From NCBI GenBank assembly GCA_038895395.1, contig JAWANJ010000001.1, positions 298 through 64,297 on the forward strand: a stretch of 64,000 nt of DNA. Reading direction: 5' to 3'. The notes beneath the pieces were generated by a model. The model was given only the letters and a program-made list of their open reading frames with translations. It did not search any database and was not told the origin of the DNA. This document shows, piece by piece, positions 20,727-44,950 of this stretch. The first letter of the stretch is position 1; every line of letters begins with the position of its first letter. The position numbers were made by a program, and so were the translations under genes. Source of the DNA: Candidatus Iainarchaeum sp. Lineage in GTDB: Archaea; Iainarchaeota; Iainarchaeia; Iainarchaeales; DTGL01.

Positions 20727-22043
20727 TTGTTGAAAAGTTTTTTTATGAGTCTTTTCAAAAAGTTTCTCAAGATTTTCTTTAGAGCACGGAGAGAAAAAAC
20801 TTTAAAGATGAGCGTCGAAAATGCAAAAAAAAGGTTGAGTGATTTAAGAAACAGAAATCGTGCACTCAAAGAAGAAATACCACGCTTATTTTCAGAAATA
20901 AGGGAAGAACTTGCAGAGCTAAGAAAACTCGTCGGTGAGCTTGAATTTGAGTCTCCAGAGATGGAAAACGTGCACTTTAAGAAGGTTGTACAGACTAGCA
21001 AAAAAGATTTTGTGAGAAAGGCTTTGATGCTTTTAGATAAGCTTGAACCACCGCTTAAAATAAATGTGACCTCTGTAAAGAGATACTATGAAAATGCTAA
21101 TAAAGAGATTGAGAGGAGTATTTTCAGCAGCAGAAAAAACATAAGTTATGCTTCTGTAGGGCTTCCAAAACATATGAGGGCTATTGGGCAAAACTTTGAC
21201 TCAATTTCTAAAAGACTTCAAACACTTGGAAGCGTAATCTCAGAAAATAAAGATATTTTTTCTGAAGTTGTTGACATCAAGATTTCTGATTTAGAAAAGG
21301 TTGATGGAAAAATAAAAGAGCTCAACAATGAACTAAAAGAATTGGATGCAAAAATCGCCCCCATAGAAGCTGAGCTACAAATGCTAAATAGAGAGATTTC
21401 ATTACTGATGGAATCAAAAGAAGCAAAAACAGCTTTTGCACTTATTGATGAGAAAAAAAATTTAGAAGAAAAAAAAGCAAAAATCAAAGACGGGGTTGTT
21501 TCTGAGCTAACTTCACTTAGAAGAATGCTGAAGAAGTTTGAAAATTTATGCAAAAAAGGTGGTTATGAGCTAAGCCATGATGTTTTGTCAAATCTTGAAA
21601 AGATGATTCGAAACAGTGAGCTTTTGTTAAAGGCAGATCCCAAGGGCGAAAGCATTAAGCAAGTGCTAAAAGAGCTTAAACACAGCATAGAAACAAGGGC
21701 TTTACCAGTTAAAGAAGAGGAAGTTGAAATTTATCTAAAAAGGGTCGATAACCTATTGGCTAAAGATTTTTTCAGCGATTTCTTTTGGCCTTTAAATGAG
21801 ATTGACGCGAGGATTATACAAATTGATAAGGAACTTAAAGATAATACGACAAGCACAAAAATTGCTGATATTAAGCAAGAGATCTCAAGGTTAGAGCGTG
21901 AGATAAGCTCTTTGAAGCTCAGCAGAGAGAAGATTTATAAAAGCATGGATCTTTTGAATGAAGAACTTAAGAGAAAGGCTGAAGAGCTTTCCGTAGTGCT
22001 TTCAGAGATTTTTTGTCAAAAAGTTTTAGTAGAGGTGCACTGA
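20727..22043 (+). CDS. hypothetical coiled-coil protein (438 aa)
   Basis: Heptad-rich, K/E/L-dominated sequence. No enzymatic motif. Confidence 0.4.
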   Translation: MLKSFFMSLFKKFLKIFFRARREKTLKMSVENAKKRLSDLRNRNRALKEEIPRLFSEIREELAELRKLVGELEFESPEMENVHFKKVVQTSKKDFVRKALMLLDKLEPPLKINVTSVKRYYENANKEIERSIFSSRKNISYASVGLPKHMRAIGQNFDSISKRLQTLGSVISENKDIFSEVVDIKISDLEKVDGKIKELNNELKELDAKIAPIEAELQMLNREISLLMESKEAKTAFALIDEKKNLEEKKAKIKDGVVSELTSLRRMLKKFENLCKKGGYELSHDVLSNLEKMIRNSELLLKADPKGESIKQVLKELKHSIETRALPVKEEEVEIYLKRVDNLLAKDFFSDFFWPLNEIDARIIQIDKELKDNTTSTKIADIKQEISRLEREISSLKLSREKIYKSMDLLNEELKRKAEELSVVLSEIFCQKVLVEVH

Positions 22044-24768: not shown

Positions 24769-25197
24769 ATGAACAAAGAAAAAAGCGCAGGTGCAGTTGT
24801 TTTTTATGGTTTTGACCCTAGATTGTATTTGCTTTTGCATTACTCGAAAGGACATTGGGACTTTCCAAAAGGGCATGTTGAAAAAAATGAAAGCGACCTT
24901 GAGGCAATGCTTCGAGAGCTAAAAGAAGAAACAGGCATAAGTGACGTAGTTGTAATTCCAGGGTTTCGAGAAACTATATCGTATTTTTTTTCAGAAAATG
25001 GAAGAAAGGTCAGCAAAACAGTTACTTTGTTTCTTGTCAAGAGTAAAACACAAAACGTGGTTTTATCTAGCGAGCATGTTGGTTACGCTTGGCTTCCTTA
25101 TGAAGAAGCTTTAAAGAAAATAACTTTTAAGAATGCTGCAGAAGTATTAAAAAAAGCCAACGATTTTTTGAAACAGAAACGCCTTTTTGAGACTTAA
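24769..25197 (+). CDS. Nudix hydrolase
   Basis: Canonical Nudix box GHVEKNESDLEAMLRELKEETGI. Confidence 0.75.
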   Translation: MNKEKSAGAVVFYGFDPRLYLLLHYSKGHWDFPKGHVEKNESDLEAMLRELKEETGISDVVVIPGFRETISYFFSENGRKVSKTVTLFLVKSKTQNVVLSSEHVGYAWLPYEEALKKITFKNAAEVLKKANDFLKQKRLFET

Positions 25198-26221
25198 AAT
25201 TTATTGTTCCTATTTTAAAATTTTTCCATGGTTGCTATATTTCATGCATGAGTATAGGAAAGATTACTTAACCGATGAATGGGTCATAATAGCTACTTCA
25301 AGAATGCAAAGACCTCACCACTTAAAAACAGTAGTAAAGAGAACTCCAAAAAGCAAGTGTCCTTTTTGTCCAGAGCACGAATCTTGGACACCACAGGAAA
25401 TAAAACGTTATCCGGAAGGTTCAAAAAAATGGAGAAAAAGGGTGGTACCAAACAAATTCCCAGCAGTGGTTAATAAAGGGAATATAAACTATGTTAAAGA
25501 AAATTTTTTGGAAAGAATGACTGCTTTTGGCGTACATGAGGTTATTATAGAAACACCGGATCACACGAAAGATTTGTGTGATTTGAGCGAGGATGAAATT
25601 GCGGAGTTATTTTTTGTTTATAAGGAATGTTTCGAAAGAGTAGCAAAGGATAAGAGAATTTCAGAGGTTGTTATTTTTAAAAACCAAGGCGCAAATGCCG
25701 GGGCAAGTCTTTCTCACGCACATTCACAGATAATTGCAACAAACAGGATATCAGAACGCTTTGGCTCAAAGCTTAAGGCATTTGTGAAATACAAGCAAAA
25801 GCACAAGTTTTGCCCATATTGTAAGATTATAGAAATTGAAGAAAAATCAAAACGTGCTGTTTATTCTGGCAAGAATGTTGTTGCTTTTACACCTTTTGCA
25901 TCAAGAGCCGCGTATGAGCTTTGGCTTTTCCCGAGAAAGCACACCCCAAATATTTTGAACCTAGACATTGAAACTATGAAAGAATTTGCTGCAGTGCTTA
26001 AGAGGGTTTTGATTTCTTTAAGAAAAATAAACGCTGACTTTAATTATTTTATCCATATGCCATGCAAGGGCGACTTTCATATGCACATGTGCATATTGCC
26101 CAGAGTTATTCAACGTGCAGGTTATGAAGAAGCAACTGAGTGCGTAATAAATGTCGTTTCTCCAGAAGACGCTGCTGCTTTATATAGAAAAAATATTAAA
26201 GACCTAAAATGCCAGAAGTAA
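25187..26221 (+). CDS. galactose-1-phosphate uridylyltransferase family (HIT-like nucleotidyl transferase/phosphorylase)
   Basis: Zn site CPFCPEHE...RVVPNKFPAV and the active-site SHAHSQII (HxHxQ) motif. Confidence 0.75.
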   Translation: MRLKIYCSYFKIFPWLLYFMHEYRKDYLTDEWVIIATSRMQRPHHLKTVVKRTPKSKCPFCPEHESWTPQEIKRYPEGSKKWRKRVVPNKFPAVVNKGNINYVKENFLERMTAFGVHEVIIETPDHTKDLCDLSEDEIAELFFVYKECFERVAKDKRISEVVIFKNQGANAGASLSHAHSQIIATNRISERFGSKLKAFVKYKQKHKFCPYCKIIEIEEKSKRAVYSGKNVVAFTPFASRAAYELWLFPRKHTPNILNLDIETMKEFAAVLKRVLISLRKINADFNYFIHMPCKGDFHMHMCILPRVIQRAGYEEATECVINVVSPEDAAALYRKNIKDLKCQK

Positions 26222-27606
26222 AATCAGAAATTTTCAGAGAATATGATATCAGGGGCCATGAATCGGAACTTGATGATAAAACCACATATCTTATTGGCAA
26301 AGCATTTGGAAGCTTTGTTTTAAGAACATCTGGAGATGAGATTGTAGTAGGTAGAGACAATAGAAAAAGCAGTGAGAGAATAAAAAAGGCTTTTTGCAAG
26401 GGTGTTATAGACAGTGGATGTAATATCATAGATATTGGCTTGGTGCCTATCCCTGCACTGTATTTTGCAATAATAGAGCTTAACACATACGGCGGCGCGA
26501 TGATCACAGGCTCTCACTTAGCAAAAGATTTTAACGGCTTAAAGCTAAGTGCATCGAAAAACGCATTAACATTGTATGGCCCTCAGATTGCAAAGCTCAG
26601 AGAAATGATCATAGGCGAAGATTTTGAGTCTGGCAATGGTAAATTAGAAAAAAGCGAAATCTTAGACATTTATGTTGAAAATGTTCTAAAGAGAATAAAA
26701 ATTGAGGAGCCTCTCAAGGTTGTTGTTGACTGCGGTAATGGTTGTTCTTCACTTGTCGCTGAACAGATTTTTGAGGGTGCTGGGTGCAAAGCAAAAATGC
26801 TTTTTTGTGAATTGGATGGAAACTTTCCTAATCATCACCCCGACCCAGCGGAGCCAGAAAATTTGCACACTCTAATAAAAGAAGTAAAAAAGCAAAAGGC
26901 GGCCTTGGGAGTGGCTTTTGATGGTGACGCTGATAGAATTGGTGCAGTAAGCGAAAATGGAACAATAGTTGCGGGGGACTATTTATTGGCTATATTTGCC
27001 AAAGATTTACTTAAGAGGAAAAAAAATGCAAAGATAGTCTTTGAGGTGAAGTGTTCCCAAGCGTTAAAAGAAATTATTGAGGCTTATGGTGGCATACCAA
27101 TTATGTATAAGACCGGTCACTCGCTAATAAAAAATAAAATGGTTGAGGAAGGCGCACTGCTAGCAGGAGAAATGTCTGGGCATATGTTTTTTAGGGAAAA
27201 TTATTATGGTTTTGACGATGCAGTTTATGCTTCTATGAAGCTGTGTGAGATCTTGTCTAAAGAGGATAAAAGTTTGAGTAAAATTATTGGTGAGTTACCT
27301 CGCTATTATATTACACCAGAAATTAGACTTTCATGCACTGAGTCTGATAAGTGGAAAATTGTTGAAAAGATAATTGATCACTTTGAAGGAAAATATAATG
27401 TAATAAAAATTGATGGAGCAAGGGTGTTGCTTGATGATGGCTGGTTTTTGGTAAGGGCGAGCAACACCAGCGCAAAGATCATAGTTAGGGCAGAATCAAA
27501 GAGCAAAACTAAATTAAACAACACGCTAAATTTACTTTCTAAAAAGCTCATTGAAATTGGGCTAAAAAAAGAGGAGGCAATCAAGATACTTGACTATAGA
27601 GTTTAA
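26209..27606 (+). CDS. phosphoglucomutase/phosphomannomutase
   Basis: Mg-binding loop GVAFDGDADRIG. Active-Ser loop ITGSHLA, a variant of the canonical TASHNP. 465 aa. Confidence 0.8.
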   Translation: MPEVKSEIFREYDIRGHESELDDKTTYLIGKAFGSFVLRTSGDEIVVGRDNRKSSERIKKAFCKGVIDSGCNIIDIGLVPIPALYFAIIELNTYGGAMITGSHLAKDFNGLKLSASKNALTLYGPQIAKLREMIIGEDFESGNGKLEKSEILDIYVENVLKRIKIEEPLKVVVDCGNGCSSLVAEQIFEGAGCKAKMLFCELDGNFPNHHPDPAEPENLHTLIKEVKKQKAALGVAFDGDADRIGAVSENGTIVAGDYLLAIFAKDLLKRKKNAKIVFEVKCSQALKEIIEAYGGIPIMYKTGHSLIKNKMVEEGALLAGEMSGHMFFRENYYGFDDAVYASMKLCEILSKEDKSLSKIIGELPRYYITPEIRLSCTESDKWKIVEKIIDHFEGKYNVIKIDGARVLLDDGWFLVRASNTSAKIIVRAESKSKTKLNNTLNLLSKKLIEIGLKKEEAIKILDYRV

Positions 27607-27678
27607 CTGCTTTTTTGAAGATGTAATTTGGAGTTTAAGTTGGGGTTATTGGATTAGTTTTAAATTATTTTAGACTGT

Positions 27679-28703
<1,025 letters not shown>

Positions 28704-28707
28704 TTAG

Positions 28708-29944
28708 ATGGCTGGGCTAAAATTAAATGAAATTGTTAAGAACATTGAGGAGGTTAATTTCAGCGAGGTTGAAAACAAGGTTGTTTTGCTAAGAGTTGAT
28801 TTAAACAGCTCAGTTAAGGATGGAAAGCTTCTAAAAAGCCCAAGAATTGTGGGTCACTTTCGTACCATAAAAACCTTTTTAGATCACAAGGCCAGGTTAG
28901 TTATACTAGCACATCAGGGACGAAAAAGGCAGAGAAGATTTTATCTCTTTGAAACAGCATGTTGAAATGTTAAAGCAAATGCTAGGAGATGAAATCGAAT
29001 TCTGTACTTGGGACGAAGATTATGTTGCTAAGATAAAAAACCTTAAACCTGGCAAGGCCTTAATGCTAGAAAACACCAGGTTTTTAGACTTTGAAACCAA
29101 TGAGATAAGCAAAGAAGAGCACGCAAAGAATCCTGTGATTCAGAAGATTGCTTCAGTCAGCGACATGTTTGTGTTGGATGCTTTAAGTGTGTCACATAGG
29201 TGCCATGCGAGCGTTGTTGGTTTTATACCTTTGTTGAAAAGCTACGCTGGGCCTATTTTATATTCTGAACTTAAGGCTTTGGCAAAGATGTCTAAAATAA
29301 AGGGCAAATCAACCTTCGTGTTAGGTGGTATGAAACCGGATGACTCTATTTATATAATGGAAAAGATGCTTAGTTCAGGAAAGGCGAGCAAAGTACTATT
29401 AGGTGGAGGCTTAGGTGAGTTAGCGTTAATTGCTAATGGTGTAAAACTTGGTGGTAAAGAGCAGGTACTTAAAGATAAAGGCATGATGGAATTTGTACCA
29501 AAACTTAGAGATCTTATTAAGAAGTATAAAAAAGAGATTGTATTACCACAAGATTTAGCGATTGAAAAAAACACCCTTCGCGAGGAGGTTTCTATAAAGA
29601 GTTTACCTGTAAACGAAATGACTTTTGACATAGGTGAAAAAACAGCAGACCTATATTCTAAAGAGATAAAAAAAGCGAAGGTTATAATTGCAAACGGTCC
29701 AGTAGGCAAATTCGAAGCAGAGTACTTTTCGTTTGGCACAAGAAAGGTTCTTGATGCAATGGCAAATTCAAAAGGATTTAGTTTGGTTGGCGGAGGAGAC
29801 ACAGTAACAGCGATAGCCAGACTGGGTTTCAAAGAAAGTGAGTTCGACCATGTAAGCTTGGCAGGGAAAGCCTTGCTTGAGCTGCTTGCTGGTGAAGAGT
29901 TGTTTGGTCTTGAAGCTCTTGCCGAAGCAAAGTACAAAAAATAA
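28708..29944 (+). pseudogene. pgk: phosphoglycerate kinase interrupted by a +1 frameshift in an A5 homopolymer (28923-28927); could equally be a sequencing error
   Basis: ORF 28708-28965 is the PGK N-terminus (…VLLRVDLNSSVKDGKL…LVILAHQGR). ORF 28949-29944 is the rest. Removing one A from cgaAAAAAggc restores ...HQGRKGEDFISLKQHVEML... Confidence 0.7.
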
Positions 29945-30048
29945 ATAGCTTGTTTTGTTTTTACTAGTTTTATTTTCACTTATTTTTGAAAGCAATTCTT
30001 TTTAAATCTAAAAGTCATTATTTATTATAAAATCATTTTGTGATATAG

Positions 30049-31236
30049 ATGAATAGTTTTCACGTTTTAATGTTAGGTTGGGAATTTCCACCATTCAAGT
30101 CAGGGGGTCTTGGCACTTATTTGTTGGGTTTCACAAAAGCATTAAACTCCCTAGGCGTTAAAATAACTTTCATTATGCCATATACTGGCAAAAGTTTAAA
30201 ATACGATTTCATTGACATCATACAGGCTGACGGTATTGAAATTTTTGGCATAAGCTCAGGCTTGACACCATACTTTGTAAAAGGTGTTGATGGTGAAAAT
30301 AGAACTTCTGTTAGTAGCGTGTATGGTTGGCGGTTTTTCGATGAGGTGAAATATTACACTCAAAGGGCAATAGCAATAGGATCTAAAATAGAATGTGATG
30401 TGATTCACTGCCATGATTGGATGACTTACATGGCAGGCATAGCGCTTAAGAAGATTCTGAAAAAGCCTCTGGTTGTGACAATACATAGCACAGAATATGA
30501 CCGCACTGGAAACCTTTTTCCCAATGCTGAAATAGTCAGTATTGAAAGACGGGGTCTTACCGAGGCAGATATGGTAATAACAGTGAGTGAATATGAAAAA
30601 AGGCAGATTATTGAAAAGTATGGCATTGAACCAAACAAAGTTGCTGTTGTTTATAACGCCATAGACCTTGAACAATATAAGCGCAAAAATATTGAGAAGT
30701 ATTTGAACGACAGAATTGTTCTTTTCGTTGGGAGGCTTACAGTACAAAAGGGCGTAGATTTTTTCATCGAAGCTGCAAAGAAGGTACTTGAAAAGAATAA
30801 AAGTGTGAGGTTTGTTATTGTTGGCTCCGGAGATCAAATGCCACATCTAATACAAAAAAGCATCAGCTTGGGAATAGCAGACAGAGTACATTTCGTTGGT
30901 TTTGAAAATGATGTTTCTAAGTATTATTCGATTGCTGATGTTTTTGTGATGCCAAGTGTTTCTGAACCATTTGGTTTAACTGCATTAGAAGCACTTGCAT
31001 GTGAAGTGCCTGTGATAATAAGTAAACAGAGTGGAGTTAGTGAAGTTATAAGGAACTGTTTAAAGGTTGATTTTTGGGACACTCAAGAGTTGGCTAACAA
31101 GATAATTGCAATGTTGTATTATCAACCACTGTATGAAGAATTGAAAGAAAGATCAAAAATGGAAATTTTGAAGTATAGAAGTTGGAGGGATGTCGCCATA
31201 GAATGCCTGGAAATTTATCGCTTAGTTGCAAGGTGA
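30049..31236 (+). CDS. glycosyltransferase, glycogen synthase-like (GT5/GT4, KxGGL type)
   Basis: N-terminal MLGWEFPPFKSGGLGTYL resembles the GlgA K-T-G-G-L motif. 395 aa GT-B fold. Confidence 0.65.
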   Translation: MNSFHVLMLGWEFPPFKSGGLGTYLLGFTKALNSLGVKITFIMPYTGKSLKYDFIDIIQADGIEIFGISSGLTPYFVKGVDGENRTSVSSVYGWRFFDEVKYYTQRAIAIGSKIECDVIHCHDWMTYMAGIALKKILKKPLVVTIHSTEYDRTGNLFPNAEIVSIERRGLTEADMVITVSEYEKRQIIEKYGIEPNKVAVVYNAIDLEQYKRKNIEKYLNDRIVLFVGRLTVQKGVDFFIEAAKKVLEKNKSVRFVIVGSGDQMPHLIQKSISLGIADRVHFVGFENDVSKYYSIADVFVMPSVSEPFGLTALEALACEVPVIISKQSGVSEVIRNCLKVDFWDTQELANKIIAMLYYQPLYEELKERSKMEILKYRSWRDVAIECLEIYRLVAR

Positions 31237-32440
31237 TATTTTGAAAAAAATATGTTTTTACTTTCAAGTGCACCAACCTATGCGCATAGGAAAATATTCT
31301 TTTTTTGATATTGGAACAGGTAAAAGTTACTTCGATGAAGAAAAGAACAGGGCGTATTTGGAACGCGTAGTAAAAAAATGCTATGGACCAGCAACTGCAC
31401 TAATAAATGAGCTTATTAATGAAACTGATGGTGCTTTCAAGGTTAATTTTAGTATTACAGGCACTTTAATTGAACAGCTAGAAAAATATTTTCCAAAAAT
31501 TCTTGAAAGCTTTATTGCAGTTGTTGAAACGGGTTGTGCGGAATTGTTTAATGAAACTTATTATCATTCACTTTCCTTTTTGATTTCAGAAAGGGAATTT
31601 AAAGAGCAGATAAAGCTTCACAGAAAAAAGATAAAGGCTGTTTTTGGTGTTAAACCCAAGGTATTTAGAAACACTGAGGCAGTATATAACAATGACATAG
31701 CTAAAATTGTTTCGAAACTTGGGTTTAAGGCTATTGTGACTGAGGGTAGTGAGAAGATATTAGGTTGGAGAAGCCCAAATTACTTGTATAAAGCAAAGGG
31801 AGAAGATATCTTACTTCTTTTAAGAAACTATAGGCTTAGTGATGACATTGCGTTTAGATTCTCTGAGAGAAGCTGGACGGAATATCCTTTGACAGCAGAT
31901 AAGTATGCATATTGGATAGCGGCCACACAAGGAGAATGTGTAAACATATTTATGGACTATGAAACCTTTGGTGAGCATCAGTGGCCTGAAACAGGAGTTT
32001 TTGATTTCTTAAGACATTTGCCAATGGAGATTTTAAAGTATCGTGACTGTGAATTTGCTTGTGCATCTGAAGTTATAAAGAAACTTGAACCAAAAGATGA
32101 GCTGGATGTTCCGTATTTTTTGTCATGGGCTGATATAGATAGAGACTTGTCAGCTTGGCTGGAAAACAGAATACAAAGGCATGCTTTCGAGGAGATCAGG
32201 GCTCTAGAAAAAGCAGTTAGGAAAAGCAAAAATCTGGATATTTTGCATAGCTGGCGCTTGCTGCAAACATCAGACCACTTTTATTATATGTGCACAAAGT
32301 GGTTTGCGGATGGCGATGTACACAAATATTTCAATCCTTACGAGACGCCTTATGATGCATATATAAATTATATTAATGTGCTAAACGATCTAAAGATGCG
32401 CTTAGGTATTAACGCCCAGCAGCAAGCTCATATGCGTTAA
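31226..32440 (+). CDS. glycoside hydrolase family 57 protein
   Basis: N-terminal FYFQVHQPMRI matches the GH57 HxHQP signature. 404 aa. Confidence 0.65.
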   Translation: MQGDILKKICFYFQVHQPMRIGKYSFFDIGTGKSYFDEEKNRAYLERVVKKCYGPATALINELINETDGAFKVNFSITGTLIEQLEKYFPKILESFIAVVETGCAELFNETYYHSLSFLISEREFKEQIKLHRKKIKAVFGVKPKVFRNTEAVYNNDIAKIVSKLGFKAIVTEGSEKILGWRSPNYLYKAKGEDILLLLRNYRLSDDIAFRFSERSWTEYPLTADKYAYWIAATQGECVNIFMDYETFGEHQWPETGVFDFLRHLPMEILKYRDCEFACASEVIKKLEPKDELDVPYFLSWADIDRDLSAWLENRIQRHAFEEIRALEKAVRKSKNLDILHSWRLLQTSDHFYYMCTKWFADGDVHKYFNPYETPYDAYINYINVLNDLKMRLGINAQQQAHMR

Positions 32441-34220
32441 GATAGTTTGTTATTAAATTTGACCAAGACAAGTTGTAACTCAACTGCTTTGCAACTATTT
32501 TTAAGTCACCACGTTCTCTTTTAGGAAGCATGTATATGTACTTCAGATATTCCACAAGCTCAGCCAAAGTTTTCTCGTAAGGTGTGTTTGCTCTTGACAG
32601 CACTTTTATTGCATTTTTTGCAAGATCAGTATTTAGATGGTTCTTTATGTATTGACCAAAACCGCTTAAATCTGTTGTAACTGCCGGTAGACCAAGTGCA
32701 ATGGTTTCTAAAGGTGTGTATCCCCAGGATTCATAATAGCTTGGAAATACTCCTAAATGGCAGCCCATTACTGCTTGATAATATTCAAGACCTAAAAGGC
32801 CATCAGCAGTACTAAGGTAGGTAGGATAATACAGCACTTTAACTTTATCTGTTTCCCTATTGAAAAGATTGTTTTTCTTTATTCTTGTGAGGATTTCATC
32901 ACTTTCATCGACTTCTAGCACACTTATTGGTGGCACTTCATTTTTTTCATGTTTTAGTTCAAACAACATTTTTTTAACTTTATATAAAAATTCGTCATCA
33001 AGCAGATTCTTACCTGTTGGGGGCTCACCTTTTGAAATGCTGTAATAAAGCCTGTTTTTTATTTTTCGTATTTCATCCTCAATTTCGTCCTCTAATCGCT
33101 CATACAATGCCATATGTTTCAGAAGCTCGATGTTTTTGCCTCTGTTAGGCGCTGGGACAAATATAAAAGCGAATATTGTTGTTGTGTTTTTAGTATCTTT
33201 TAACTCATTGTTTAATCGCCCCAAGGCGTCTATAAACAGGTCTATGCCTTTGTTTCTTACCTCATAGCGGCCTGAAAGGAAGTAAAACAGGCTATCTTCA
33301 ACGTTTATGTAATAATATGGTGCAAAGTAGTCAAGCACGAAACGTCTAATGATGTTTCTGTAGATAACATGGAGATTTGCAAGCTCTTCCATAACATAAA
33401 ATTTTTCTACGTTTAGGCCATTTGGGGTTAAAATATCAGGTCTTCTGCCAAGAATGTACTGAGATTCGTTAGCACAAGTCTCGGATACTGTAGTAAACAC
33501 AGTAGCTTTGTGAGCGCATGCTTTTTCTGTAAGATGTTTTGCTTGAACTCCATATTTATATGCACGTTCATTTGGCACTGTTTCATTTGCCTGTATCTTT
33601 GAGATTATTTCTTCGTGCAATGGCTCTCCTGATCCAGCAATGCACCTTCCAAGCACGGTTGCATGTGTTGTAAAAATAGTTTTTATTTCTGGTTTATAGT
33701 GCACTATGTGAAGAAGTGCGCCTCCCGATAGCCACTCATGACAATGAACTATGCATTTTTTTATGTCATGCTCTTTTGCAAAAACAACCGTAATCAATTT
33801 TTCTAATAATAGGCCAACTGCCTTACCCCAAACAATAGGTTCGTTGTAATCATCGCCCGTGCCCAGAGAGTCTATTTGATAAAGATCCCAAAATTCTCGT
33901 TTTATATCATTTGTCTTTGCCTTTAGTTCATTTGGATCAACTAATATGCACTTTGGTCTGCCAGGTACAAGCCAATGGCCAGAATAGCAGTTAATTCCAT
34001 ATGTTTTTTTCAGGTAATCGAATACTTCAGCAAATTCGGGCGATGGTGTTTCTTCTTCAAATTCAACAGCGGCGCTTCTTTTGAAATAAGGACCAATTGT
34101 AAAAAAGTTTTTCAGGGAATTTTTTGCTTCAGCAGCCTTTGTGGATAGGACAGTATATATTCCGCCTACTTTGTTAGAAACTTCCCATCCAACCTCAAAA
34201 ACAGTGAAATCTTTTTGCAT
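32409..34220 (-). CDS. glycogen synthase, eukaryote-like GT3 family
   Basis: N-terminus FEVGWEVSNKVGGIYTVLSTKA is the GT3 glycogen synthase signature (EVSWEVANKVGGIYTV). 603 aa. Confidence 0.8.
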   Translation of the reverse strand: MQKDFTVFEVGWEVSNKVGGIYTVLSTKAAEAKNSLKNFFTIGPYFKRSAAVEFEEETPSPEFAEVFDYLKKTYGINCYSGHWLVPGRPKCILVDPNELKAKTNDIKREFWDLYQIDSLGTGDDYNEPIVWGKAVGLLLEKLITVVFAKEHDIKKCIVHCHEWLSGGALLHIVHYKPEIKTIFTTHATVLGRCIAGSGEPLHEEIISKIQANETVPNERAYKYGVQAKHLTEKACAHKATVFTTVSETCANESQYILGRRPDILTPNGLNVEKFYVMEELANLHVIYRNIIRRFVLDYFAPYYYINVEDSLFYFLSGRYEVRNKGIDLFIDALGRLNNELKDTKNTTTIFAFIFVPAPNRGKNIELLKHMALYERLEDEIEDEIRKIKNRLYYSISKGEPPTGKNLLDDEFLYKVKKMLFELKHEKNEVPPISVLEVDESDEILTRIKKNNLFNRETDKVKVLYYPTYLSTADGLLGLEYYQAVMGCHLGVFPSYYESWGYTPLETIALGLPAVTTDLSGFGQYIKNHLNTDLAKNAIKVLSRANTPYEKTLAELVEYLKYIYMLPKRERGDLKIVAKQLSYNLSWSNLITNYLNAYELAAGR

Positions 34221-34287
34221 CTAATCGCCTTTCAATAGTAATTAAAATAATAAAGGTTAAAATAACTTTCATTTTAACAATTAGAAT

Positions 34288-36168
34288 GTGGTTTCACCGA
34301 TAAACAAAAATTCGGAATTGGGAAAATATTCTTATTTTTTGAGCAATAAGGATTGTTTTTTTCACAGATATTACGATACTGGTTTCAAGACAAAATGGAC
34401 TGGCTTTTGGTCCAATGGCAAAAAGTATATTGAATTTTTTGACTTTAAGGTTTTTGGAAAATATCTTTCAGAGTCAAATTGCATAAAAGCAACATATGAT
34501 TTTACGAAAGCAACTCATGTTCATGCTATTGATGATGGTGTTTTTATTCAATCTGTTTGGACCCCGCTTTCTGGAGCTAAACTAGTTGTAGAGCTCCAAA
34601 GTGCAAACAACAAAAATTTTGAAGCTGAGTTTGAGTTTGCCATTAACATACGAAAGCGAGAAGAAAATTGGCATGATCGCGATTATGTAGTAAAACAGGA
34701 TGAAAATGAAAATTGTATAAATGTTTCTTCTAGTTTGGGTCAAATAAATATTTGTGTTTCTGGAAGCGAAAGCCAGTTTGTGCCTTTGCATCAGTATTTT
34801 GACCATTATCCATCTGGGGAAAAACAGCGATATTTTTTGCCGGGCATACTGAAACTAAAGGGCACAACTGTACGAATATTGTTTTCTTTGGAGAATGAGT
34901 CAGGTTTTGGTGACAACGAGCTTTTAAGCAAAAGAAGCTTTTATCGACAGCTCACCAACTGCATAGAGTGTGATGACCCTTTGATCTCTGGGTTATACAA
35001 AAAAGCCATTTTAAACATGGAGCTGCTTTTTTGTGGTAACTGTTATTACGCGGGTTTGCCCTGGTTTTTGCAGTTTTGGGCAAGAGATATGTTTTGGAGC
35101 TTACCAGCTTTCTTGTATGCGGGTTTTTTAAATCGAGCTAAATCAGCATTAGAGGTTTTTTCAGATAAGGTTATCAATGGAAGAGTTCCAAATTATATCT
35201 ACGGAGATGAAGTAAATTACTCTTCCATTGACTCCAGCATAATGTTTATATCTGCTTTAAGGGATTATATTGCGTTTTCAGGAGACACGGATTTTTTAGA
35301 GAATAAAATCGACTTAGTTTGTGATATAATGCAGAGGCTTCTTGCAGTTACTGACAGCAGAGGGTTTATATCACATGATAGCAAAGAAAACGAAACTTGG
35401 ATGGACAGTCTAAATAGGTATGAAACTGCCATAGAAATACAAGCCCTTTTTGTAAAGGCCCTTTCAGATTTTTCTGAGCTTGTATTTTTGGCAAAAAAAC
35501 CAAGTGGTGCTGCTATGGCCTTAGCATTTGAGGCAGAGGGGCTTGCAAGAAGACAACAGCACTTATTTGAAAAAGTTTTTTACAACGATGGCAAGTATGC
35601 CGACAGAATATGCGGTGAGCAAAAAGATTTCTCTAAAAGGCCAAATGCGCTTGTGCCTATTATGTTGGGGTTAAGCAAGTTTGGAATCGAAGAGTTTGAA
35701 AAGAGCGATATTTTATGCGAAAAAGGTGTAATGAGTCTTTCAAGTGAAAACAATGGATTTGATAGTGCTTCGTATCACAACGGCCAGGCATGGTCTCTTT
35801 GCACTGGTTGGCTTGCATGTGCGGAGTTTGCTATGAATCGGGTTGAAAAAGGCTATGAAATACTTAAGATCATTGATGATTACACTTACGGTGACACGCC
35901 TGGCTGCATAGGAGAATCATGGAATAGCAAAACGTTTGAGCGTATGGGGTGTAATATCCAACTTTGGGGCGCAGCACTTGCTATAAGAGCTATAGATGAG
36001 TTTATGCTTGGGATAAAACCATATGCTCCACGTCAAGAGATAGAAGTTTGCCCAAGGTTACCATCAAGTGTTGGATATGTTAAAAGGACTATAAATTTGG
36101 GTGGAAAAGAAACAAGCATCATTGTTAAGAAACAAGGCACATCAGTGAAAGTAGGCCTTTCACGTTAG
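34288..36168 (+). CDS. glycogen debranching enzyme / amylo-alpha-1,6-glucosidase (six-hairpin GDE C-terminal domain)
   Basis: 626 aa. GDE_C-like (alpha/alpha)6 region (…LPWFLQFWARDMFWSLPAF…). GTG start. Confidence 0.7.
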   Translation: MVSPINKNSELGKYSYFLSNKDCFFHRYYDTGFKTKWTGFWSNGKKYIEFFDFKVFGKYLSESNCIKATYDFTKATHVHAIDDGVFIQSVWTPLSGAKLVVELQSANNKNFEAEFEFAINIRKREENWHDRDYVVKQDENENCINVSSSLGQINICVSGSESQFVPLHQYFDHYPSGEKQRYFLPGILKLKGTTVRILFSLENESGFGDNELLSKRSFYRQLTNCIECDDPLISGLYKKAILNMELLFCGNCYYAGLPWFLQFWARDMFWSLPAFLYAGFLNRAKSALEVFSDKVINGRVPNYIYGDEVNYSSIDSSIMFISALRDYIAFSGDTDFLENKIDLVCDIMQRLLAVTDSRGFISHDSKENETWMDSLNRYETAIEIQALFVKALSDFSELVFLAKKPSGAAMALAFEAEGLARRQQHLFEKVFYNDGKYADRICGEQKDFSKRPNALVPIMLGLSKFGIEEFEKSDILCEKGVMSLSSENNGFDSASYHNGQAWSLCTGWLACAEFAMNRVEKGYEILKIIDDYTYGDTPGCIGESWNSKTFERMGCNIQLWGAALAIRAIDEFMLGIKPYAPRQEIEVCPRLPSSVGYVKRTINLGGKETSIIVKKQGTSVKVGLSR

Positions 36169-40513: not shown

Positions 40514-40586
40514 GGGCCCGTAGCTCAGCTGGCAGAGCACTGGACTTTTAATCCAGGTGTCGCGGGTTCAAATCCCGTCGGGCCCA
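40514..40586 (+). tRNA. tRNA-Lys (TTT)
   Basis: GGGCCCG...CGGGCCC acceptor stem, anticodon loop CTTTTAA, T arm GCGGGTTCAAATCCCGT. Confidence 0.9.
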
Positions 40587-40587
40587 T

Positions 40588-40678
40588 GGGGCTGTGGTGT
40601 AGTCTGGTCTAGCATACCAGCTTTGGGAAATTAAATTCAAAAAAGCTGGAGACCCGGGTTCAAATCCCAGCAGCCCCA
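40588..40678 (+). tRNA. tRNA-Pro (TGG) with a ~16-nt intron after position 37
   Basis: Acceptor GGGGCTG/CAGCCCC. Anticodon stem CCAGC/GCTGG flanks TTTGGG + aaattaaattcaaaaa + A. T arm CCGGG-TTCAAAT-CCCAG has one C·A mismatch. Confidence 0.7.
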
Positions 40679-40696
40679 ATAAATTGAGGTGAGTTT

Positions 40697-43123: not shown

Positions 43124-44950
43124 TTAGACTCTTTTTACATAAATTATATTCTGTATTTTTTGTAGGTTTTCAATTATCTGCTCTAAATGTGTTCTATCTT
43201 TTATATACAAATCAAATAACCCTTTTACTATGTTCCCAGATTCAACCATAAGCTCACTTCTAACGATTTTCGCATCCATTTTTTTTAATTCTTCTAAAAG
43301 ATCCCTTAAAAGCACACCGCTTTCAAATGCCTTGATTTCAATTCTAATCACATATCGGTTCATTTCAAGTAAATGGGTTGCAATTAAAAATTTCTTTTTT
43401 TTAGGTAAACAGAAAAGCAATCTACAGTCAGTTCTGTGCACTGTTATTTTATCTCTCGAAGTTTTATACGCAACTACATCATCTCCAGGGAGGGGATTGC
43501 AGCACTTTGCAAAAATTATGTCACTTCTGTTGGCTTTATTTGGATTAAAAACCCTAAAACCTTTTGTACTTTCAAGTTCCTTCCTTATTGCAGACCTTGC
43601 TTTTGATGTTCTTGCAAAGTTTAACCAACTAGCTTTTACTGTTTTTTTTGTATCAACAAAAACACGGATTTTATCACCACTTTCTAAAACATAATTGGCT
43701 GGCCTCCTTACTCCATTTACATTTGCAAACTTAAACCTATTCCCTAAATCAGTATGAACAGCATATGCAAAATCTAAAACTGTTGCCTTTTTAGGTAAAG
43801 CAATAATATCGTGCTTTGGTGTTAGAACAAATATTGTGTTGTCAGTTAGTTTAAATTTAACATAGTTTAAGAGTCCCTTCATGTCTTTTTGCTGAAGTTC
43901 AAATAATTTTCTAGCAGCCAAAAGCGCCCCATCAAAATTAGTATATTGTTCACCTCTCTTATAACGCCAGTGAGCAGCAGCACCATACTCTGCTTCTCTG
44001 TGCATATGCACTGTCCTAATCTGTACTTCTACAGGTATGTTGGAAACTTTTGTCATAACATGTATTGACTGATAATTATTTTCCTTTGGCTTTTTAATGT
44101 AGTCATAGATTTTCCCATGTATCCCAAAATTTTGTTTTATAATGTTTAACACCTTATAGCAGTCTTCTACAGAATCGCACACCACCCTAACCCCGATGAT
44201 GTCTTTAATCTTATCGATCTCTAGATTTTCTTCAATGCTTTTTCTATAGATGCTGTAAACCCCTTTTACACGCCCCTGTACTAAGGCCTTTATTCCAAAC
44301 ATTGAGACTAACTTTTCAATATCACATTTTGCCTTCGCAAGTACTTTTTCCCCACAAACAATCTTTTCATAAATTAGCGCTTTTGTTTTTTTGTACTCTT
44401 TTGGCATAAGTATAGCCATACCCAAATCTTGTAATTCCTTACACATTTCAACTAGACCTAGTTTTTGACATATATTTGAGTAAACCTCAAGTGACAGTTT
44501 TGCTGCACGTAGTTCTCTTACGCTTGGTTTCTTTGAAGTTTTGTATATCTGACGCATTTCATCTAGGTGTGAAGCAAGCTCAACAATTATACTTCTTAAA
44601 TCCTTTGATATCGCAAGAAGTATGTTTGCCAAACCAACACTGTTTAAGTGCTCAATATTTCTTTCTTTGGCTTCGTAAATCTTGTTAACCTCCATCACAA
44701 TTTCCCTTACGTCTTCATCTACGGGTGCTAAGTTTATACAGTCCTTAAGTTCATGCAACAGTGCGGCAGAAATAGATTTTTGATCAAGACTCAAATCAAA
44801 AACAATTTTTGCAGTTCTTAGCTGATGCAAAAACCGTGTCCTTTTAGAGTTTTTCTTTGAAAACTCTAATACTTCAATAATTTTCGCAGCGTCTTTATCG
44901 AACTCTCTAAATAGCTCATCTTCTGTGAGATATAAACCACTGCCTTTCAC
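43124..44950 (-). CDS. long RelA/SpoT homologue (HD-like + (p)ppGpp synthetase + TGS + ACT domains)
   Basis: Synthetase motifs GRVKGVYSIYRKS...IGVRVVC...YQSIHVMT...RTVHMHREAEYGAAAHWRYK. TGS region VFVLTPKHDIIALPKKATVLDFAYAVHTDLG. N-terminal HD-like region with ALLHELKD (HD altered to HE). 608 aa. Confidence 0.85.
   Translation of the reverse strand: MKGSGLYLTEDELFREFDKDAAKIIEVLEFSKKNSKRTRFLHQLRTAKIVFDLSLDQKSISAALLHELKDCINLAPVDEDVREIVMEVNKIYEAKERNIEHLNSVGLANILLAISKDLRSIIVELASHLDEMRQIYKTSKKPSVRELRAAKLSLEVYSNICQKLGLVEMCKELQDLGMAILMPKEYKKTKALIYEKIVCGEKVLAKAKCDIEKLVSMFGIKALVQGRVKGVYSIYRKSIEENLEIDKIKDIIGVRVVCDSVEDCYKVLNIIKQNFGIHGKIYDYIKKPKENNYQSIHVMTKVSNIPVEVQIRTVHMHREAEYGAAAHWRYKRGEQYTNFDGALLAARKLFELQQKDMKGLLNYVKFKLTDNTIFVLTPKHDIIALPKKATVLDFAYAVHTDLGNRFKFANVNGVRRPANYVLESGDKIRVFVDTKKTVKASWLNFARTSKARSAIRKELESTKGFRVFNPNKANRSDIIFAKCCNPLPGDDVVAYKTSRDKITVHRTDCRLLFCLPKKKKFLIATHLLEMNRYVIRIEIKAFESGVLLRDLLEELKKMDAKIVRSELMVESGNIVKGLFDLYIKDRTHLEQIIENLQKIQNIIYVKRV

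What the first reader, a model, noticed from the sequence alone, without database searches (positions are those of the whole stretch)
25187..36168. Glycogen-metabolism island containing a eukaryote-type GT3 glycogen synthase alongside a GT5-like synthase, GH57, debranching enzyme, GalT-like and PGM, interleaved with gap/pgk
GalT-family transferase, PGM/PMM, GAPDH, PGK, GT5-like GlgA, GH57, GT3 synthase and GDE form a contiguous cluster. The GT3 signature is the eukaryotic-type glycogen synthase, which is rare in prokaryotes. No glgC-type NDP-glucose pyrophosphorylase is visible, so the GalT-family enzyme may supply the sugar nucleotide or act as an NDP-glucose phosphorylase. Two distinct synthases, GT3 and GT5-like, in one locus is unusual.
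Basis: partly seen in the sequence, partly recalled or inferred. Interest (0 to 1): 0.55.

Follow-up and report, generated by a model that had tools for sequence, protein, structure and literature searches.

The report
DPANN archaeal glycogen gene cluster
This is the usual glycogen-storage gene cluster of a tiny DPANN archaeon, already described in outline, but it carries an ADP-glucose-phosphorylase-like enzyme that also sits next to glycogen synthases in many bacteria, a link I found discussed nowhere.

Summary
Window 24.8-36.2 kb encodes NUDIX, a GalT/HIT-like protein, PGM, class I GAPDH, PGK (frameshifted), a GT4/GT5-like synthase, GH57, a full-length GT3 glycogen synthase and a GH133-type debranching enzyme.

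The host is a DPANN archaeon (Candidatus Diapherotrites MAG). In that group, GT3 together with a GT4/5-like synthase, GH57 and GH133 is the normal arrangement. It recurs in all five related loci I fetched. A 2024 review already describes GT3 in DPANN. So "rare" and "unusual" do not hold in context.

The more interesting part is the GalT-like protein:
- Its closest solved relative is Arabidopsis ADP-glucose phosphorylase (163 bits, against 45 for E. coli GalT).
- Its HxHxQ nucleophile motif and zinc ligands are intact.
- In 80 species-representative genomes centred on this protein, it lies directly beside a glycogen synthase in 37. The partner is GT3 in 9 of 27 archaea and GT5 GlgA in 28 of 53 bacteria.

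No glgC-type gene, phosphorylase, galK or galE lies in the window.

Thermodynamics argue that the enzyme drains NDP-glucose to glucose-1-phosphate rather than supplying it. Its role, the nucleotide it uses and the division of labour between the two synthases are untested.

The parts
24769..25197 (+). NUDIX hydrolase of the Ap4A-hydrolase (NUDT2) type, first gene of the co-directional string
   Evidence: Pfam NUDIX 2.8e-18. Best PDB match is 3U53, bis(5'-nucleosyl)-tetraphosphatase, 65.8 bits. Conserved at this position only in L001.
25244..26221 (+). Class I GalT/HIT-family protein that resembles ADP-glucose phosphorylase. The longest ORF starts at TTG 25187, but the likely start is ATG 25244.
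   Evidence: PF01087 6.9e-16. It scores below the NCBIfam galT cut-offs (82.5 against 102.1). PDB matches: 1Z84 At5g18200 163 bits, 6K5Z 113 bits, E. coli GalT 44.7 bits. CxxC, the H of HEV and the SHAHSQ motif are invariant in the orthologue alignment A1.
26209..27606 (+). Phosphoglucomutase/phosphomannomutase. Its start overlaps the end of the GalT-like gene by 13 nt.
   Evidence: All four PGM_PMM domains. NCBIfam PgmG 459 bits, below the cut-off of 600.
27699..28703 (+). Class I (bacterial-type) glyceraldehyde-3-phosphate dehydrogenase
   Evidence: TIGR01534 GAPDH-I 454.7 bits, above the cut-off of 367.2.
28708..29944 (+). Phosphoglycerate kinase, interrupted by a +1 frameshift in an A-run at about 28922-28926
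   Evidence: PF00162 3.8e-76 on the C-terminal ORF, matching profile positions 68-379. The N-terminal 74 aa lie in another frame. DNA alignment to the intact L001 pgk shows one extra A.
30049..31236 (+). GT4/GT5-like retaining glucosyltransferase (archaeal GlgA-like), the upstream partner of GH57
   Evidence: Pfam. Best PDB match is P. abyssi GlgA 2BIS, 88 bits over residues 5-381; GlgM 6TVP scores 75.8 bits. KSGGL and E-x7-E motifs are visible in the translation. It is adjacent to GH57 in L001-L005.
31226..32440 (+). Short (404 aa) GH57 enzyme of the amylase-like type. It is a candidate for branching or trimming.
   Evidence: PF03065 2.3e-81. The orthologue profile aligns E151 and D244 with the nucleophile and acid/base of T. 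litoralis 4-alpha-glucanotransferase 1K1W. No closer solved structure was found.
32409..34220 (-). GT3 (eukaryote-type) glycogen synthase core without regulatory tails
   Evidence: PF05693 1.9e-140. Human GYS1 381 bits over residues 6-601. Catalytic motifs are conserved in 12 DPANN orthologues, but the six-Arg regulatory helix is not.
34288..36168 (+). GH133-type amylo-alpha-1,6-glucosidase (archaeal GDE), divergently transcribed from GT3 across a 67-nt AT-rich spacer
   Evidence: PF06202 3.4e-28. TIGR01561 scores 54 bits, below the cut-off of 364. Weak PDB match to 7VMA, an archaeal-type Gde, 3.7e-4.

Best explanation
This is the standard glycogen (alpha-glucan) storage and mobilisation cluster of a DPANN archaeon, joined to lower-glycolysis genes.

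Proposed flow:
- PGM interconverts glucose-6-phosphate and glucose-1-phosphate.
- An NDP-glucose pool feeds two retaining glucosyltransferases: a GT3 synthase with a complete catalytic core, and an archaeal GlgA-like GT4/5 enzyme.
- The GlgA-like enzyme is always paired with a short GH57 that has an intact catalytic Glu and Asp. By analogy with the Sulfolobus amyA-glgA pair, this pair is the likely build-and-branch module.
- The GH133-type glucosidase debranches.
- The GalT-like HIT enzyme is an NDP-glucose:phosphate nucleotidyltransferase. It acts through a nucleotidyl-histidine intermediate and interconverts NDP-glucose + Pi with glucose-1-phosphate + NDP.

Synthase plus this enzyme sums to the glycogen phosphorylase reaction. 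The favoured direction in a cell is therefore NDP-glucose to glucose-1-phosphate. That makes the enzyme a phosphate-sensitive valve or recycling link into PGM, GAPDH and PGK, not the primary supplier of sugar nucleotide. The supplier must lie elsewhere in the genome.

Shown: family memberships, catalytic motifs and conserved synteny.
Inferred: substrates, the nucleotide used, the direction of flux, and the roles of the two synthases and of GH57.
For: Archaeal DPANN origin:
- Pus10, TFIIE-alpha, aTrm56, RPA, RadA, GGGP synthase and XerA are in the window.
- Proteins 100% identical to NCBI Candidatus Diapherotrites MAG proteins, on a contig of 69,991 bp.

Families.

GT3:
- 381 bits to human GYS1 over the full length.
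- The motifs KVGGI, HEW, THAT, GRYE..NKG and E-x7-E are conserved in 12 DPANN orthologues.

Cluster conservation: GT4>GH57, GT3 and a GDE or GDE-like gene occur in all of L001-L005, from Diapherotrites, Aenigmatarchaeota, Micrarchaeota and an unnamed DPANN-like groundwater contig.

GalT-like protein:
- Best PDB match is ADP-glucose phosphorylase.
- Motifs are conserved.
- At5g18200 is 40-43% identical to the bacterial GlgA-linked members and 31-34% identical to the DPANN members.
- In 80 genomes centred on this protein, it lies within 300 bp and on the same strand as GT3 in 9 of 27 archaea, as GDE in 7 and as PGM in 5. It lies so beside KTGGL-type GlgA in 28 of 53 bacteria and beside an NTP_transf_4 protein in 14.
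- No galK or galE is in the window. The GHMP kinase is mevalonate kinase, and the SDR scores 50.7 bits against the GalE cut-off of 262.

Literature:
- GT3 in DPANN, and GH57 amylase as a possible missing branching enzyme (PMC11046441).
- Sulfolobus amyA-glgA are co-transcribed and the amyA knockout lowers glycogen (PMC8158581).
- Glycogen is called a hallmark of DPANN (PMC7443923).

Thermodynamics, from established knowledge: the phosphorylase equilibrium [Pi]/[G1P] is about 3.6 at pH 6.8. From my recollection of McCoy et al. 2006, ADP-glucose phosphorolysis has a Keq of roughly 5-40 toward glucose-1-phosphate.
Against: - No enzyme was assayed, and no archaeal GT3 has ever been characterised.
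- The NDP-glucose source is not identified. Only 64 kb of the genome is visible.
- In DPANN operons of the form GT3>GalT-like>PGM>GDE, the GalT-like gene occupies exactly the slot where a glucose-1-phosphate-activating enzyme would be expected. No PF00483 protein appeared among the 25 commonest families listed for 136 neighbouring proteins of 25 archaeal loci.
- The GalT-like gene is absent within 10 kb of the Aenigmatarchaeota cluster L003, so it is not obligatory.
- Nine of the 27 archaeal loci centred on the GalT-like gene have no glycogen gene nearby.
- The PGK frameshift could mean the locus is decaying, although it is more likely a homopolymer sequencing error.
Confidence: 0.65

Rival explanations
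1. The GalT-like enzyme is the supplier of NDP-glucose and replaces GlgC or UGPase. It would run either as reverse phosphorolysis (NDP + glucose-1-phosphate gives NDP-glucose + Pi) or as a HIT-type pyrophosphorylase (NTP + glucose-1-phosphate gives NDP-glucose + PPi through a nucleotidyl-histidine).
For: - The operon order GT3>GalT-like>PGM in Woesearchaeota and Nanoarchaeota puts it in the activation slot.
- No PF00483 nucleotidyltransferase is in the window. None appears among the common neighbours of 25 archaeal loci.
- The genome has a true PPDK, so PPi is metabolically relevant.
Against: - Reverse phosphorolysis plus synthase equals the phosphorylase reaction, which cannot drive net synthesis at normal Pi/G1P ratios (established thermodynamics).
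- Use of NTP or PPi is, to my knowledge, unreported for class I GalT-family enzymes.
- In bacteria the gene is often preceded by a separate sugar nucleotidyltransferase-like gene, NTP_transf_4 plus hexapeptide repeats, in 14 of 53 loci. That leaves no gap to fill there.
Confidence: 0.2
2. Split phosphorylase. GT3, the GalT-like enzyme, PGM and GDE form a degradative module. The synthase would run backwards (glucan + NDP gives NDP-glucose). The GalT-like enzyme would pull the reaction by phosphorolysis to glucose-1-phosphate. Together they would replace a GT35 glycogen phosphorylase. The GT4/5-GH57 pair would be the synthetic module.
For: - There are two separable modules: GT4>GH57 is always adjacent, and GT3 is adjacent to the GalT-like gene, with PGM and GDE.
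- GDE is catabolic in Sulfolobus (PMC8158581; PMC11046441).
- No phosphorylase is in the window.
- Ca. Nanohalobium glycogen catabolism is described with hydrolases only (PMC7443923).
- The overall reaction is thermodynamically downhill in cells.
- GT3 and GT35 are grouped as related GT-B families (PMC11046441).
Against: - The glycogen synthase equilibrium lies far toward synthesis, so steady-state NDP-glucose would be only micromolar.
- No physiological reversal is known for GT3 or GT5 synthases.
- The same GalT-like gene is linked to ordinary GlgA in bacteria, most of which would be expected to have GlgP. I did not check this.
- Absence of GT35 from DPANN genomes was not verified here. Table 3 of the review is not held as text.
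Confidence: 0.12
3. The GalT-like protein is an ordinary Leloir-pathway UDP-glucose:galactose-1-phosphate uridylyltransferase. It would feed galactose into glucose-1-phosphate, and its closeness to glycogen genes would be incidental.
For: - The best named profile hits are GalT models.
- The second-best PDB relative (6K5Z, 318 aa, deposited name galactose-1-phosphate uridylyltransferase) is probably the Pyrobaculum aerophilum GalT cited as a class I GalT in bioRxiv 10.64898/2026.09.13.751320. The link between the PDB code and that organism is my inference.
- PGM is also a Leloir partner.
Against: - It scores below both NCBIfam galT cut-offs (82.5 against 102.1, and 102.6 against 448).
- It is much closer to ADP-glucose phosphorylase (163 bits) than to E. 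coli or human GalT (about 45 bits).
- No galK or galE is in the window or among recurrent neighbours.
- It is adjacent to a glycogen synthase in 37 of 80 genomes, across two synthase families.
Confidence: 0.1
4. The GT4/GT5-like protein is not a glucan-elongating synthase. It could be another GT4 activity, such as a GlgM-like maltose-1-phosphate synthase, a primer-forming substitute for glycogenin, or a glycosyltransferase for a compatible solute.
For: - Scores to GlgA (88 bits), BshA-type GT4 (about 80 bits) and GlgM (75.8 bits) are close.
- It is far below the NCBIfam glgA cut-offs (110 against 328; glgA_Coryne 143.7 against 302).
- The review marks archaeal GT4 roles with question marks and asks what primes GT3 in DPANN.
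Against: - The only full-length PDB alignment is to P. abyssi GlgA.
- It has the KxGGL motif typical of GT5 and GT3 synthases.
- It is invariably paired with GH57, as in Sulfolobus amyA-glgA.
- No GlgE, TreS or Mak is in the window or the related loci.
Confidence: 0.15

Closest known systems
Archaeal/DPANN glycogen gene sets described in Cifuente et al., Chem Rev 2024 (PMC11046441)
   Same: GT3 glycogen synthase in DPANN. GT4, GH57-amylase and GH133 genes clustered together. No classical branching enzyme. Enzymes uncharacterised.
   Different: The archaeal-glycogen sections of the review never mention a GalT/HIT-family gene: 'uridylyltransferase' occurs only in unrelated sections and 'ADP-glucose phosphorylase' not at all in the held text. 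Here that gene, PGM and lower-glycolysis genes are part of the string.
Sulfolobus acidocaldarius glg cluster (glgX GH133 - gaa GH15 - glgC; amyA GH57 - glgA), PMC8158581
   Same: GH57 and a GlgA-type synthase form an adjacent, co-oriented pair. A GH133-type debranching enzyme is in the same locus. There is no GH13 GlgB.
   Different: Sulfolobus has GlgC and a GH15 glucoamylase in the cluster and no GT3. This locus has GT3, a GalT-like gene and PGM, and no GlgC or GH15.
Eukaryotic glycogen synthase (human GYS1, yeast Gsy2p; CAZy GT3)
   Same: End-to-end alignment (381 bits, residues 28-613 of GYS1) with all catalytic motifs conserved.
   Different: It lacks the N- and C-terminal phospho-regulatory tails. 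Only one of the six arginines of the glucose-6-phosphate/phosphate-sensing helix is invariant across DPANN orthologues. No glycogenin is evident. The donor nucleotide is unknown.
Arabidopsis thaliana At5g18200 ADP-glucose phosphorylase (PDB 1Z84/2H39)
   Same: Class I GalT/HIT fold family. HxHxQ nucleophile motif and CxxC/His zinc site. 33% identity over 328 residues.
   Different: The plant enzyme is closer (40-43%) to the bacterial GlgA-linked members. Nucleotide specificity of the DPANN branch is unknown. As far as I know, the plant enzyme's physiological role is also unsettled.
Mycobacterium tuberculosis Rv3031 (GH57) - Rv3032 (GT4 alpha-1,4-glucosyltransferase) pair (recalled from memory, not checked here)
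   Same: An adjacent GH57 and GT4-type alpha-1,4-glucosyltransferase pair.
   Different: The mycobacterial pair serves methylglucose lipopolysaccharide as well as glycogen. Its GH57 is longer (branching-enzyme type). No sequence comparison was run.

Membership tests
CAZy GT3 / Pfam PF05693 glycogen synthase | Full-length match to the family profile above the curated cut-off | tested here: met
   469.9 bits against a cut-off of 27, profile positions 1-582 of 639. 381 bits to human GYS1.
CAZy GT3 / Pfam PF05693 glycogen synthase | GT-B catalytic motifs (KxGG loop, HEW, THAT, R..K phosphate binders, E-x7-E) | tested here: met
   NKVGGIYTV, HCHEWLSG, FTTHATVLGR, GRYEVRNKGID and FPSYYESWGYTPLET all align with the GYS1 motifs and are conserved in 12 DPANN orthologues.
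CAZy GT3 / Pfam PF05693 glycogen synthase | Eukaryote-type regulation: arginine-cluster helix for glucose-6-phosphate and phosphate, plus N- and C-terminal phosphosite tails | tested here: not met
   The alignment stops at GYS1 residues 28-613, so there are no tails. Human SRRQRIIQRNRTER aligns with PKRERGDLKIVAKQ, and only one Arg is invariant across DPANN. This is a feature of the eukaryotic subgroup, not of the family.
CAZy GT3 / Pfam PF05693 glycogen synthase | Alpha-1,4-glucan elongation from UDP-glucose | not testable with these tools
   Needs an enzyme assay. No archaeal GT3 has been characterised (PMC11046441).
GT5 glycogen/starch synthase (GlgA) | PF08323 N-terminal domain and KxGGL motif | tested here: met
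   PF08323 2.2e-25 over profile positions 1-228 of 239. KSGGL at residues 17-21.
GT5 glycogen/starch synthase (GlgA) | Score above the curated glgA model cut-offs | tested here: not met
   TIGR02095 110.1 against 328.45. PRK00654 models 60-72 against 459-845. Pfam GT4 domains score equally well. So the GT4-versus-GT5 assignment stays open, and I call it GT4/5-like.
GH57 | PF03065 match, and the catalytic Glu (CSR3) and Asp (CSR4) present | tested here: met
   273.7 bits. RNTE151 and MD244YETFGEH align with WLTE123R and HDD214GEKFG of 1K1W and are invariant in six orthologues.
GH57 glycogen branching enzyme subgroup | Length of about 520 aa or more with the C-terminal helical domain, and close similarity to solved GH57 branching enzymes | tested here: not met
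   404 aa. There was no PDB hit with the single sequence. With the profile, the only hit was the 4-alpha-glucanotransferase 1K1W at 1.5e-4. Branching activity is not excluded (PMC11046441).
GH133-type amylo-alpha-1,6-glucosidase (GDE_C) | PF06202 match above cut-off | tested here: met
   99.1 bits against a cut-off of 21, profile positions 17-364 of 367. But TIGR01561 gde_arch scores 54 against 364, and PDB 7VMA only 3.7e-4.
GH133-type amylo-alpha-1,6-glucosidase (GDE_C) | Catalytic acid residues of the (alpha/alpha)6 barrel | not tested
   No reliable alignment to a structurally characterised GH133 domain was made.
Class I GalT (HIT superfamily, GalT branch) | HxHxQ motif with nucleophilic second His, and a CxxC + His zinc site | tested here: met
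   SHAHSQ, CPFC and HEV are invariant in A1. HxHxQ is present in all 71 family ORFs and C.FC in 67 of 71.
Leloir GalT (UDP-glucose:galactose-1-phosphate uridylyltransferase, equivalog) | Score above the curated equivalog cut-off, and a genomic context with galK and galE | tested here: not met
   TIGR00209 82.5 against 102.1. PRK11720 102.6 against 448. No galK or galE was found.
ADP-glucose phosphorylase (At5g18200 type) | Closest characterised relative, and phosphorolysis of NDP-glucose | tested here: inconclusive
   It is the closest solved relative by a wide margin (163 bits), but identity is only 33%. Activity and nucleotide preference need assays.

The most novel reading that the evidence does not exclude
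The ADP-glucose-phosphorylase-like HIT enzyme is a dedicated partner of glycogen synthases in DPANN archaea (GT3) and in many uncultured bacterial phyla (GT5 GlgA). Together with the synthase it would form a two-enzyme, NDP-catalysed equivalent of glycogen phosphorylase. That would be a reversible, ATP-free gate between glucan and glucose-1-phosphate. It could explain why these reduced genomes carry two synthases and no visible GT35, and it would give the long-orphan At5g18200 family a physiological role.
Probability: 0.15. Interest if true: 0.7.

Novelty: new member of a known kind. Interest (0 to 1): 0.4.

Why it matters
The island itself adds only another example of the DPANN glycogen toolkit.

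The conserved placement of the ADP-glucose-phosphorylase-like gene is different. It sits beside glycogen synthases of two unrelated families, in archaea and in bacteria. I found no discussion of this in the searchable literature.

It gives a concrete, testable handle on three open points:
- How DPANN archaea make or control NDP-glucose.
- What archaeal GT3 synthases do and what primes them.
- What ADP-glucose phosphorylases are for.

All the proteins are small and soluble-looking, so the assays are straightforward.

Tried and rejected
- **Alternative genetic code for the PGK break.** Rejected. DNA alignment to L001 shows a single extra A in a homopolymer.
- **Leloir pathway context.** The window's GHMP kinase is mevalonate kinase and sits in a mevalonate operon. 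The only SDR epimerase-like gene is not GalE.
- **Trehalose or sucrose synthase for the GT4/5-like protein.** No TreT hit appeared among 58 PDB matches. Sucrose-phosphate-synthase-like hits cover only the C-terminal domain.
- **An apparent 858-aa GalT-like/GlgA fusion in L064.** This is an ORF-calling artefact: an alternative-frame read-through in high-GC DNA. The two genes are merely adjacent.
- **Pairs of unannotated ~450-aa and ~660-aa ORFs in the clusters of L002 and L004.** The pairs are not homologous to each other. The L004 660-aa protein is a divergent GDE-like protein. The L002 453-aa protein and the window ORF 20727-22043 share only coiled-coil-like similarity.
- **Ap4A phosphorylase identity for the GalT-like protein**, prompted by the neighbouring Ap4A-hydrolase-like NUDIX. 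No Apa-type PDB hit appeared at E <= 1e-3.
- **Sources I could not reach.** The McCoy et al. 2006 kinetics paper. Table 3 of the 2024 review, for GT35 content of DPANN. The supplement of La Cono et al. 2020.
- **Tools skipped.** The sigma-70 promoter and terminator scan was not used because the host is an archaeon.

Full report
**What is there.** The genes on the + strand, in order:
- NUDIX (24769-25197).
- A GalT/HIT-family protein (longest ORF 25187-26221; likely start 25244).
- PGM/PMM (26209-27606), whose start overlaps the end of the previous gene by 13 nt.
- Class I GAPDH (27699-28703).
- PGK (28708-29944).
- After a 104-nt AT-rich spacer, a GT4/GT5-like glycosyltransferase (30049-31236).
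- GH57 (31226-32440).

A GT3 glycogen synthase lies on the - strand (32409-34220) and converges on GH57. A GDE_C/GH133-type glucosidase (34288-36168, + strand) is divergent from GT3 across 67 nt. XerA follows.

PGK is split by one extra A in an A-run at about 28922-28926. The 84%-identical relative L001 has an intact 411-aa gene at the same place. A homopolymer error is more likely than a real pseudogene, but I cannot tell which.

**Whose genome.** The window is archaeal. It encodes Pus10, TFIIE-alpha, aTrm56, RPA, RadA, GGGP synthase, the archaeal mevalonate pathway and XerA above its equivalog cut-off. The GT3 and GT4/5-like proteins are 100% identical to NCBI proteins of a "Candidatus Diapherotrites archaeon" MAG, on a contig of 69,991 bp. 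This changes how the finding should be read.

**Is the GT3 real, and is it rare?**
- It matches PF05693 at 1.9e-140 over almost the whole profile.
- It aligns end to end with human GYS1 (381 bits).
- Every catalytic motif I checked is conserved in it and in 12 DPANN orthologues.
- It lacks the eukaryotic N- and C-terminal tails. The six-arginine regulatory helix is not conserved: only one Arg is invariant.

It is not rare in this setting. The homologue search returned more than 7,900 proteins at E <= 1e-10. The nearest come from Diapherotrites, Aenigmarchaeota, Micrarchaeota and Nanoarchaeota. A 2024 review states that archaeal GT3 synthases are confined to DPANN and Euryarchaeota. It places the DPANN sequences near the PVC and eukaryotic ones, and it notes that none has been characterised (PMC11046441). 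Another paper calls glycogen storage a hallmark of DPANN (PMC7443923).

**Are two synthases unusual?** Not here. I fetched five related loci through GT3 homologues of 46-84% identity:
- Two Diapherotrites MAGs.
- One contig with a protein named Aenigmatarchaeota.
- One named Micrarchaeota.
- One unnamed groundwater contig.

All five carry both GT3 and the GT4/5-like gene. In all five the GT4/5-like gene sits immediately upstream of GH57 on the same strand. All five also carry a GDE; in the Micrarchaeota locus it is a divergent 660-aa GDE-like protein.

The GT4/5-like protein has a KSGGL motif and an E-x7-E motif. Its only full-length PDB alignment is to Pyrococcus abyssi GlgA (88 bits). GlgM (76 bits) and BshA-type GT4 enzymes (80 bits) are close behind. 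It is far below the curated glgA cut-offs. I therefore call it GlgA-like but leave GT4 versus GT5 open.

The pairing with GH57 mirrors Sulfolobus acidocaldarius. There amyA (GH57) and glgA are co-transcribed, and loss of amyA lowers glycogen (PMC8158581). The review raises the possibility that such GH57 "amylases" are the missing archaeal branching enzyme.

The window GH57 is short (404 aa). It has no close solved relative. It keeps the catalytic Glu and Asp when its orthologue profile is aligned to the T. litoralis 4-alpha-glucanotransferase.

**The GalT-like protein.** This is where the locus goes beyond what I found described.
- By sequence it is a class I GalT-family HIT protein with the HxHxQ motif (SHAHSQ) and the CxxC/His zinc site.
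- It is below both NCBIfam GalT cut-offs.
- Its closest solved relative is Arabidopsis At5g18200, a characterised ADP-glucose phosphorylase (163 bits).
- Next comes 6K5Z (113 bits), probably the Pyrobaculum aerophilum GalT. That link is my inference.
- E. coli and human GalT score only about 45 bits.

I then scanned one genome per species with an alignment of five orthologues and kept the 80 best loci. I called ORFs, clustered the neighbours and named the recurrent clusters by Pfam. "Adjacent" below means within 300 bp on the same strand.

| Neighbour of the GalT-like gene | 27 archaeal loci | 53 bacterial loci |
|---|---|---|
| GT3, adjacent | 9 | - |
| GDE, adjacent | 7 | - |
| PGM, adjacent | 5 | 1 |
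| GlgA-like cluster, adjacent | 0 | 28 |
| NTP_transf_4, adjacent | - | 14 |

- The common archaeal order is GT3>GalT-like>PGM>GDE. Eighteen of the 27 archaeal loci have at least one glycogen-related neighbour within 10 kb.
- The bacterial loci come from Zixibacteria, Ignavibacteria, Elusimicrobia, WOR-3, Acidobacteria and others.
- The bacterial GlgA is typical GT5: PF08323 at 2.4e-88 for the representative, and a KTGGL motif in 24 of the 31 bacterial ORFs of that cluster.
- The NTP_transf_4 protein also carries hexapeptide repeats.

So the same small enzyme is tied to glycogen synthases of two different GT families in two domains. Shared ancestry within DPANN cannot explain that. At5g18200 is 40-43% identical to the bacterial GlgA-linked members and 31-34% to the DPANN ones.

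Searches of the paper library for DUF4921, DUF4931, NTP_transf_4, ADP-glucose phosphorylase, and uridylyltransferase together with DPANN lineage names found no discussion of this linkage. Absence from that library is not proof of novelty.

**What it most likely does.** The chemistry of the family is transfer of a nucleotidyl group from NDP-hexose to a phosphate acceptor through a nucleotidyl-histidine. Together with the closest relative, this points to NDP-glucose + Pi <-> glucose-1-phosphate + NDP.

The operon position, between PGM and a synthase, fits that. No PF00483 nucleotidyltransferase is in the window. None is among the listed commonest families for 136 neighbours of 25 archaeal loci.

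However, synthase plus NDP-glucose phosphorylase sums to glucan(n) + glucose-1-phosphate <-> glucan(n+1) + Pi. That is the phosphorylase reaction, whose equilibrium ([Pi]/[G1P] about 3.6; textbook value) favours breakdown at cellular phosphate levels.

I therefore rank the readings as follows:
1. **Valve or recycling role, first.** NDP-glucose to glucose-1-phosphate, then PGM and glycolysis.
2. **Supplier role, second.** It would need either unusual metabolite ratios or an unreported NTP/PPi-using HIT chemistry.
3. **Split phosphorylase, a less likely but more interesting third.** GT3 would run in reverse, pulled by this enzyme.
4. **Leloir role, unlikely.** The only GHMP kinase in the window is mevalonate kinase, and the only epimerase-like SDR is not GalE.

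All of these are inferences. None is shown.

**Verdict.** The family assignments are correct. The phosphorylase suggestion is reasonable. The claims of rarity do not hold once the host is recognised. The island is a new member of a known kind. The conserved linkage between the GalT-like gene and glycogen synthases is a modest, testable addition.

Noticed in passing
window 28708-29944 (shift at about 28922-28926): PGK is split by a +1 frameshift in a run of five A. The 84%-identical relative L001 has four A and an intact 411-aa gene. This is either a homopolymer assembly error or a very recent pseudogene.
   Followed up: yes
window 24769-25197: The NUDIX gene directly upstream of the GalT-like gene is of the Ap4A-hydrolase (NUDT2) type (PDB 3U53, 65.8 bits). 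It sits next to a GalT-branch HIT protein. The pairing is kept only in the closest relative, L001.
   Followed up: partly
window 27699-28703: The GAPDH is the bacterial class I type (TIGR01534 454.7 bits, above cut-off; archaeal type II only 27 bits) in an archaeal genome. This is probably horizontal acquisition.
   Followed up: no
window 43124-44950 (-): A long RelA/SpoT homologue (HD, RelA_SpoT, TGS and ACT domains; TIGR00691 390 bits, below its cut-off of 499) in an archaeon. It is also present in L001. (p)ppGpp enzymes of this architecture are unusual in archaea.
   Followed up: no
window 14297-16999: A genuine pyruvate, phosphate dikinase (TIGR01828 1344 bits), so PPi-linked glycolysis or gluconeogenesis is likely. 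This may matter for any PPi-producing sugar-nucleotide step.
   Followed up: no
window 54394-56415: A 673-aa ORF with no Pfam hit. The N-terminal half is Glu/Lys-rich and low in complexity. The C-terminal ~400 aa are weakly GDE-like (phmmer 8e-5 to the L005 GDE; PDB MmpH 0.064). It may be a divergent (alpha/alpha)6 glycoside hydrolase.
   Followed up: partly
window 40587-40679: ARAGORN reports a 93-nt 'tRNA-???' with a two-base anticodon call, abutting tRNA-Lys (40514-40586). It could be an intron-containing or otherwise atypical archaeal tRNA.
   Followed up: no
L020, L023, L031, L033, L034, L036, L038, L046, L054, L060 (downstream of GlgA); L024, L032: In bacteria the GalT-like>GlgA pair is often followed by a ~630-aa multi-pass membrane protein, or by DUF5693. 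Polysaccharide pyruvyl transferase and Wzy-like proteins also recur among these neighbours. The glucan made there may be a surface polymer rather than storage glycogen.
   Followed up: partly
L005 16339-16740; L006 3550-3960; L007 6029-6466; L009 5969-6364: Small ORFs recur next to DPANN glycogen clusters. Those of L006, L007 and L009 form one sequence cluster. The L005 ORF has a weak DUF5752 hit, and three of the 136 archaeal neighbours scanned match DUF5752, but I did not check which ones. Function is unknown.
   Followed up: no
L004 6484-8466 and L018 7037-9019: The Micrarchaeota cluster has a 660-aa protein with no Pfam hit on record that is distantly GDE-like (phmmer 1.8e-4 to the L002 GDE). 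It may be a divergent debranching-enzyme subfamily.
   Followed up: partly
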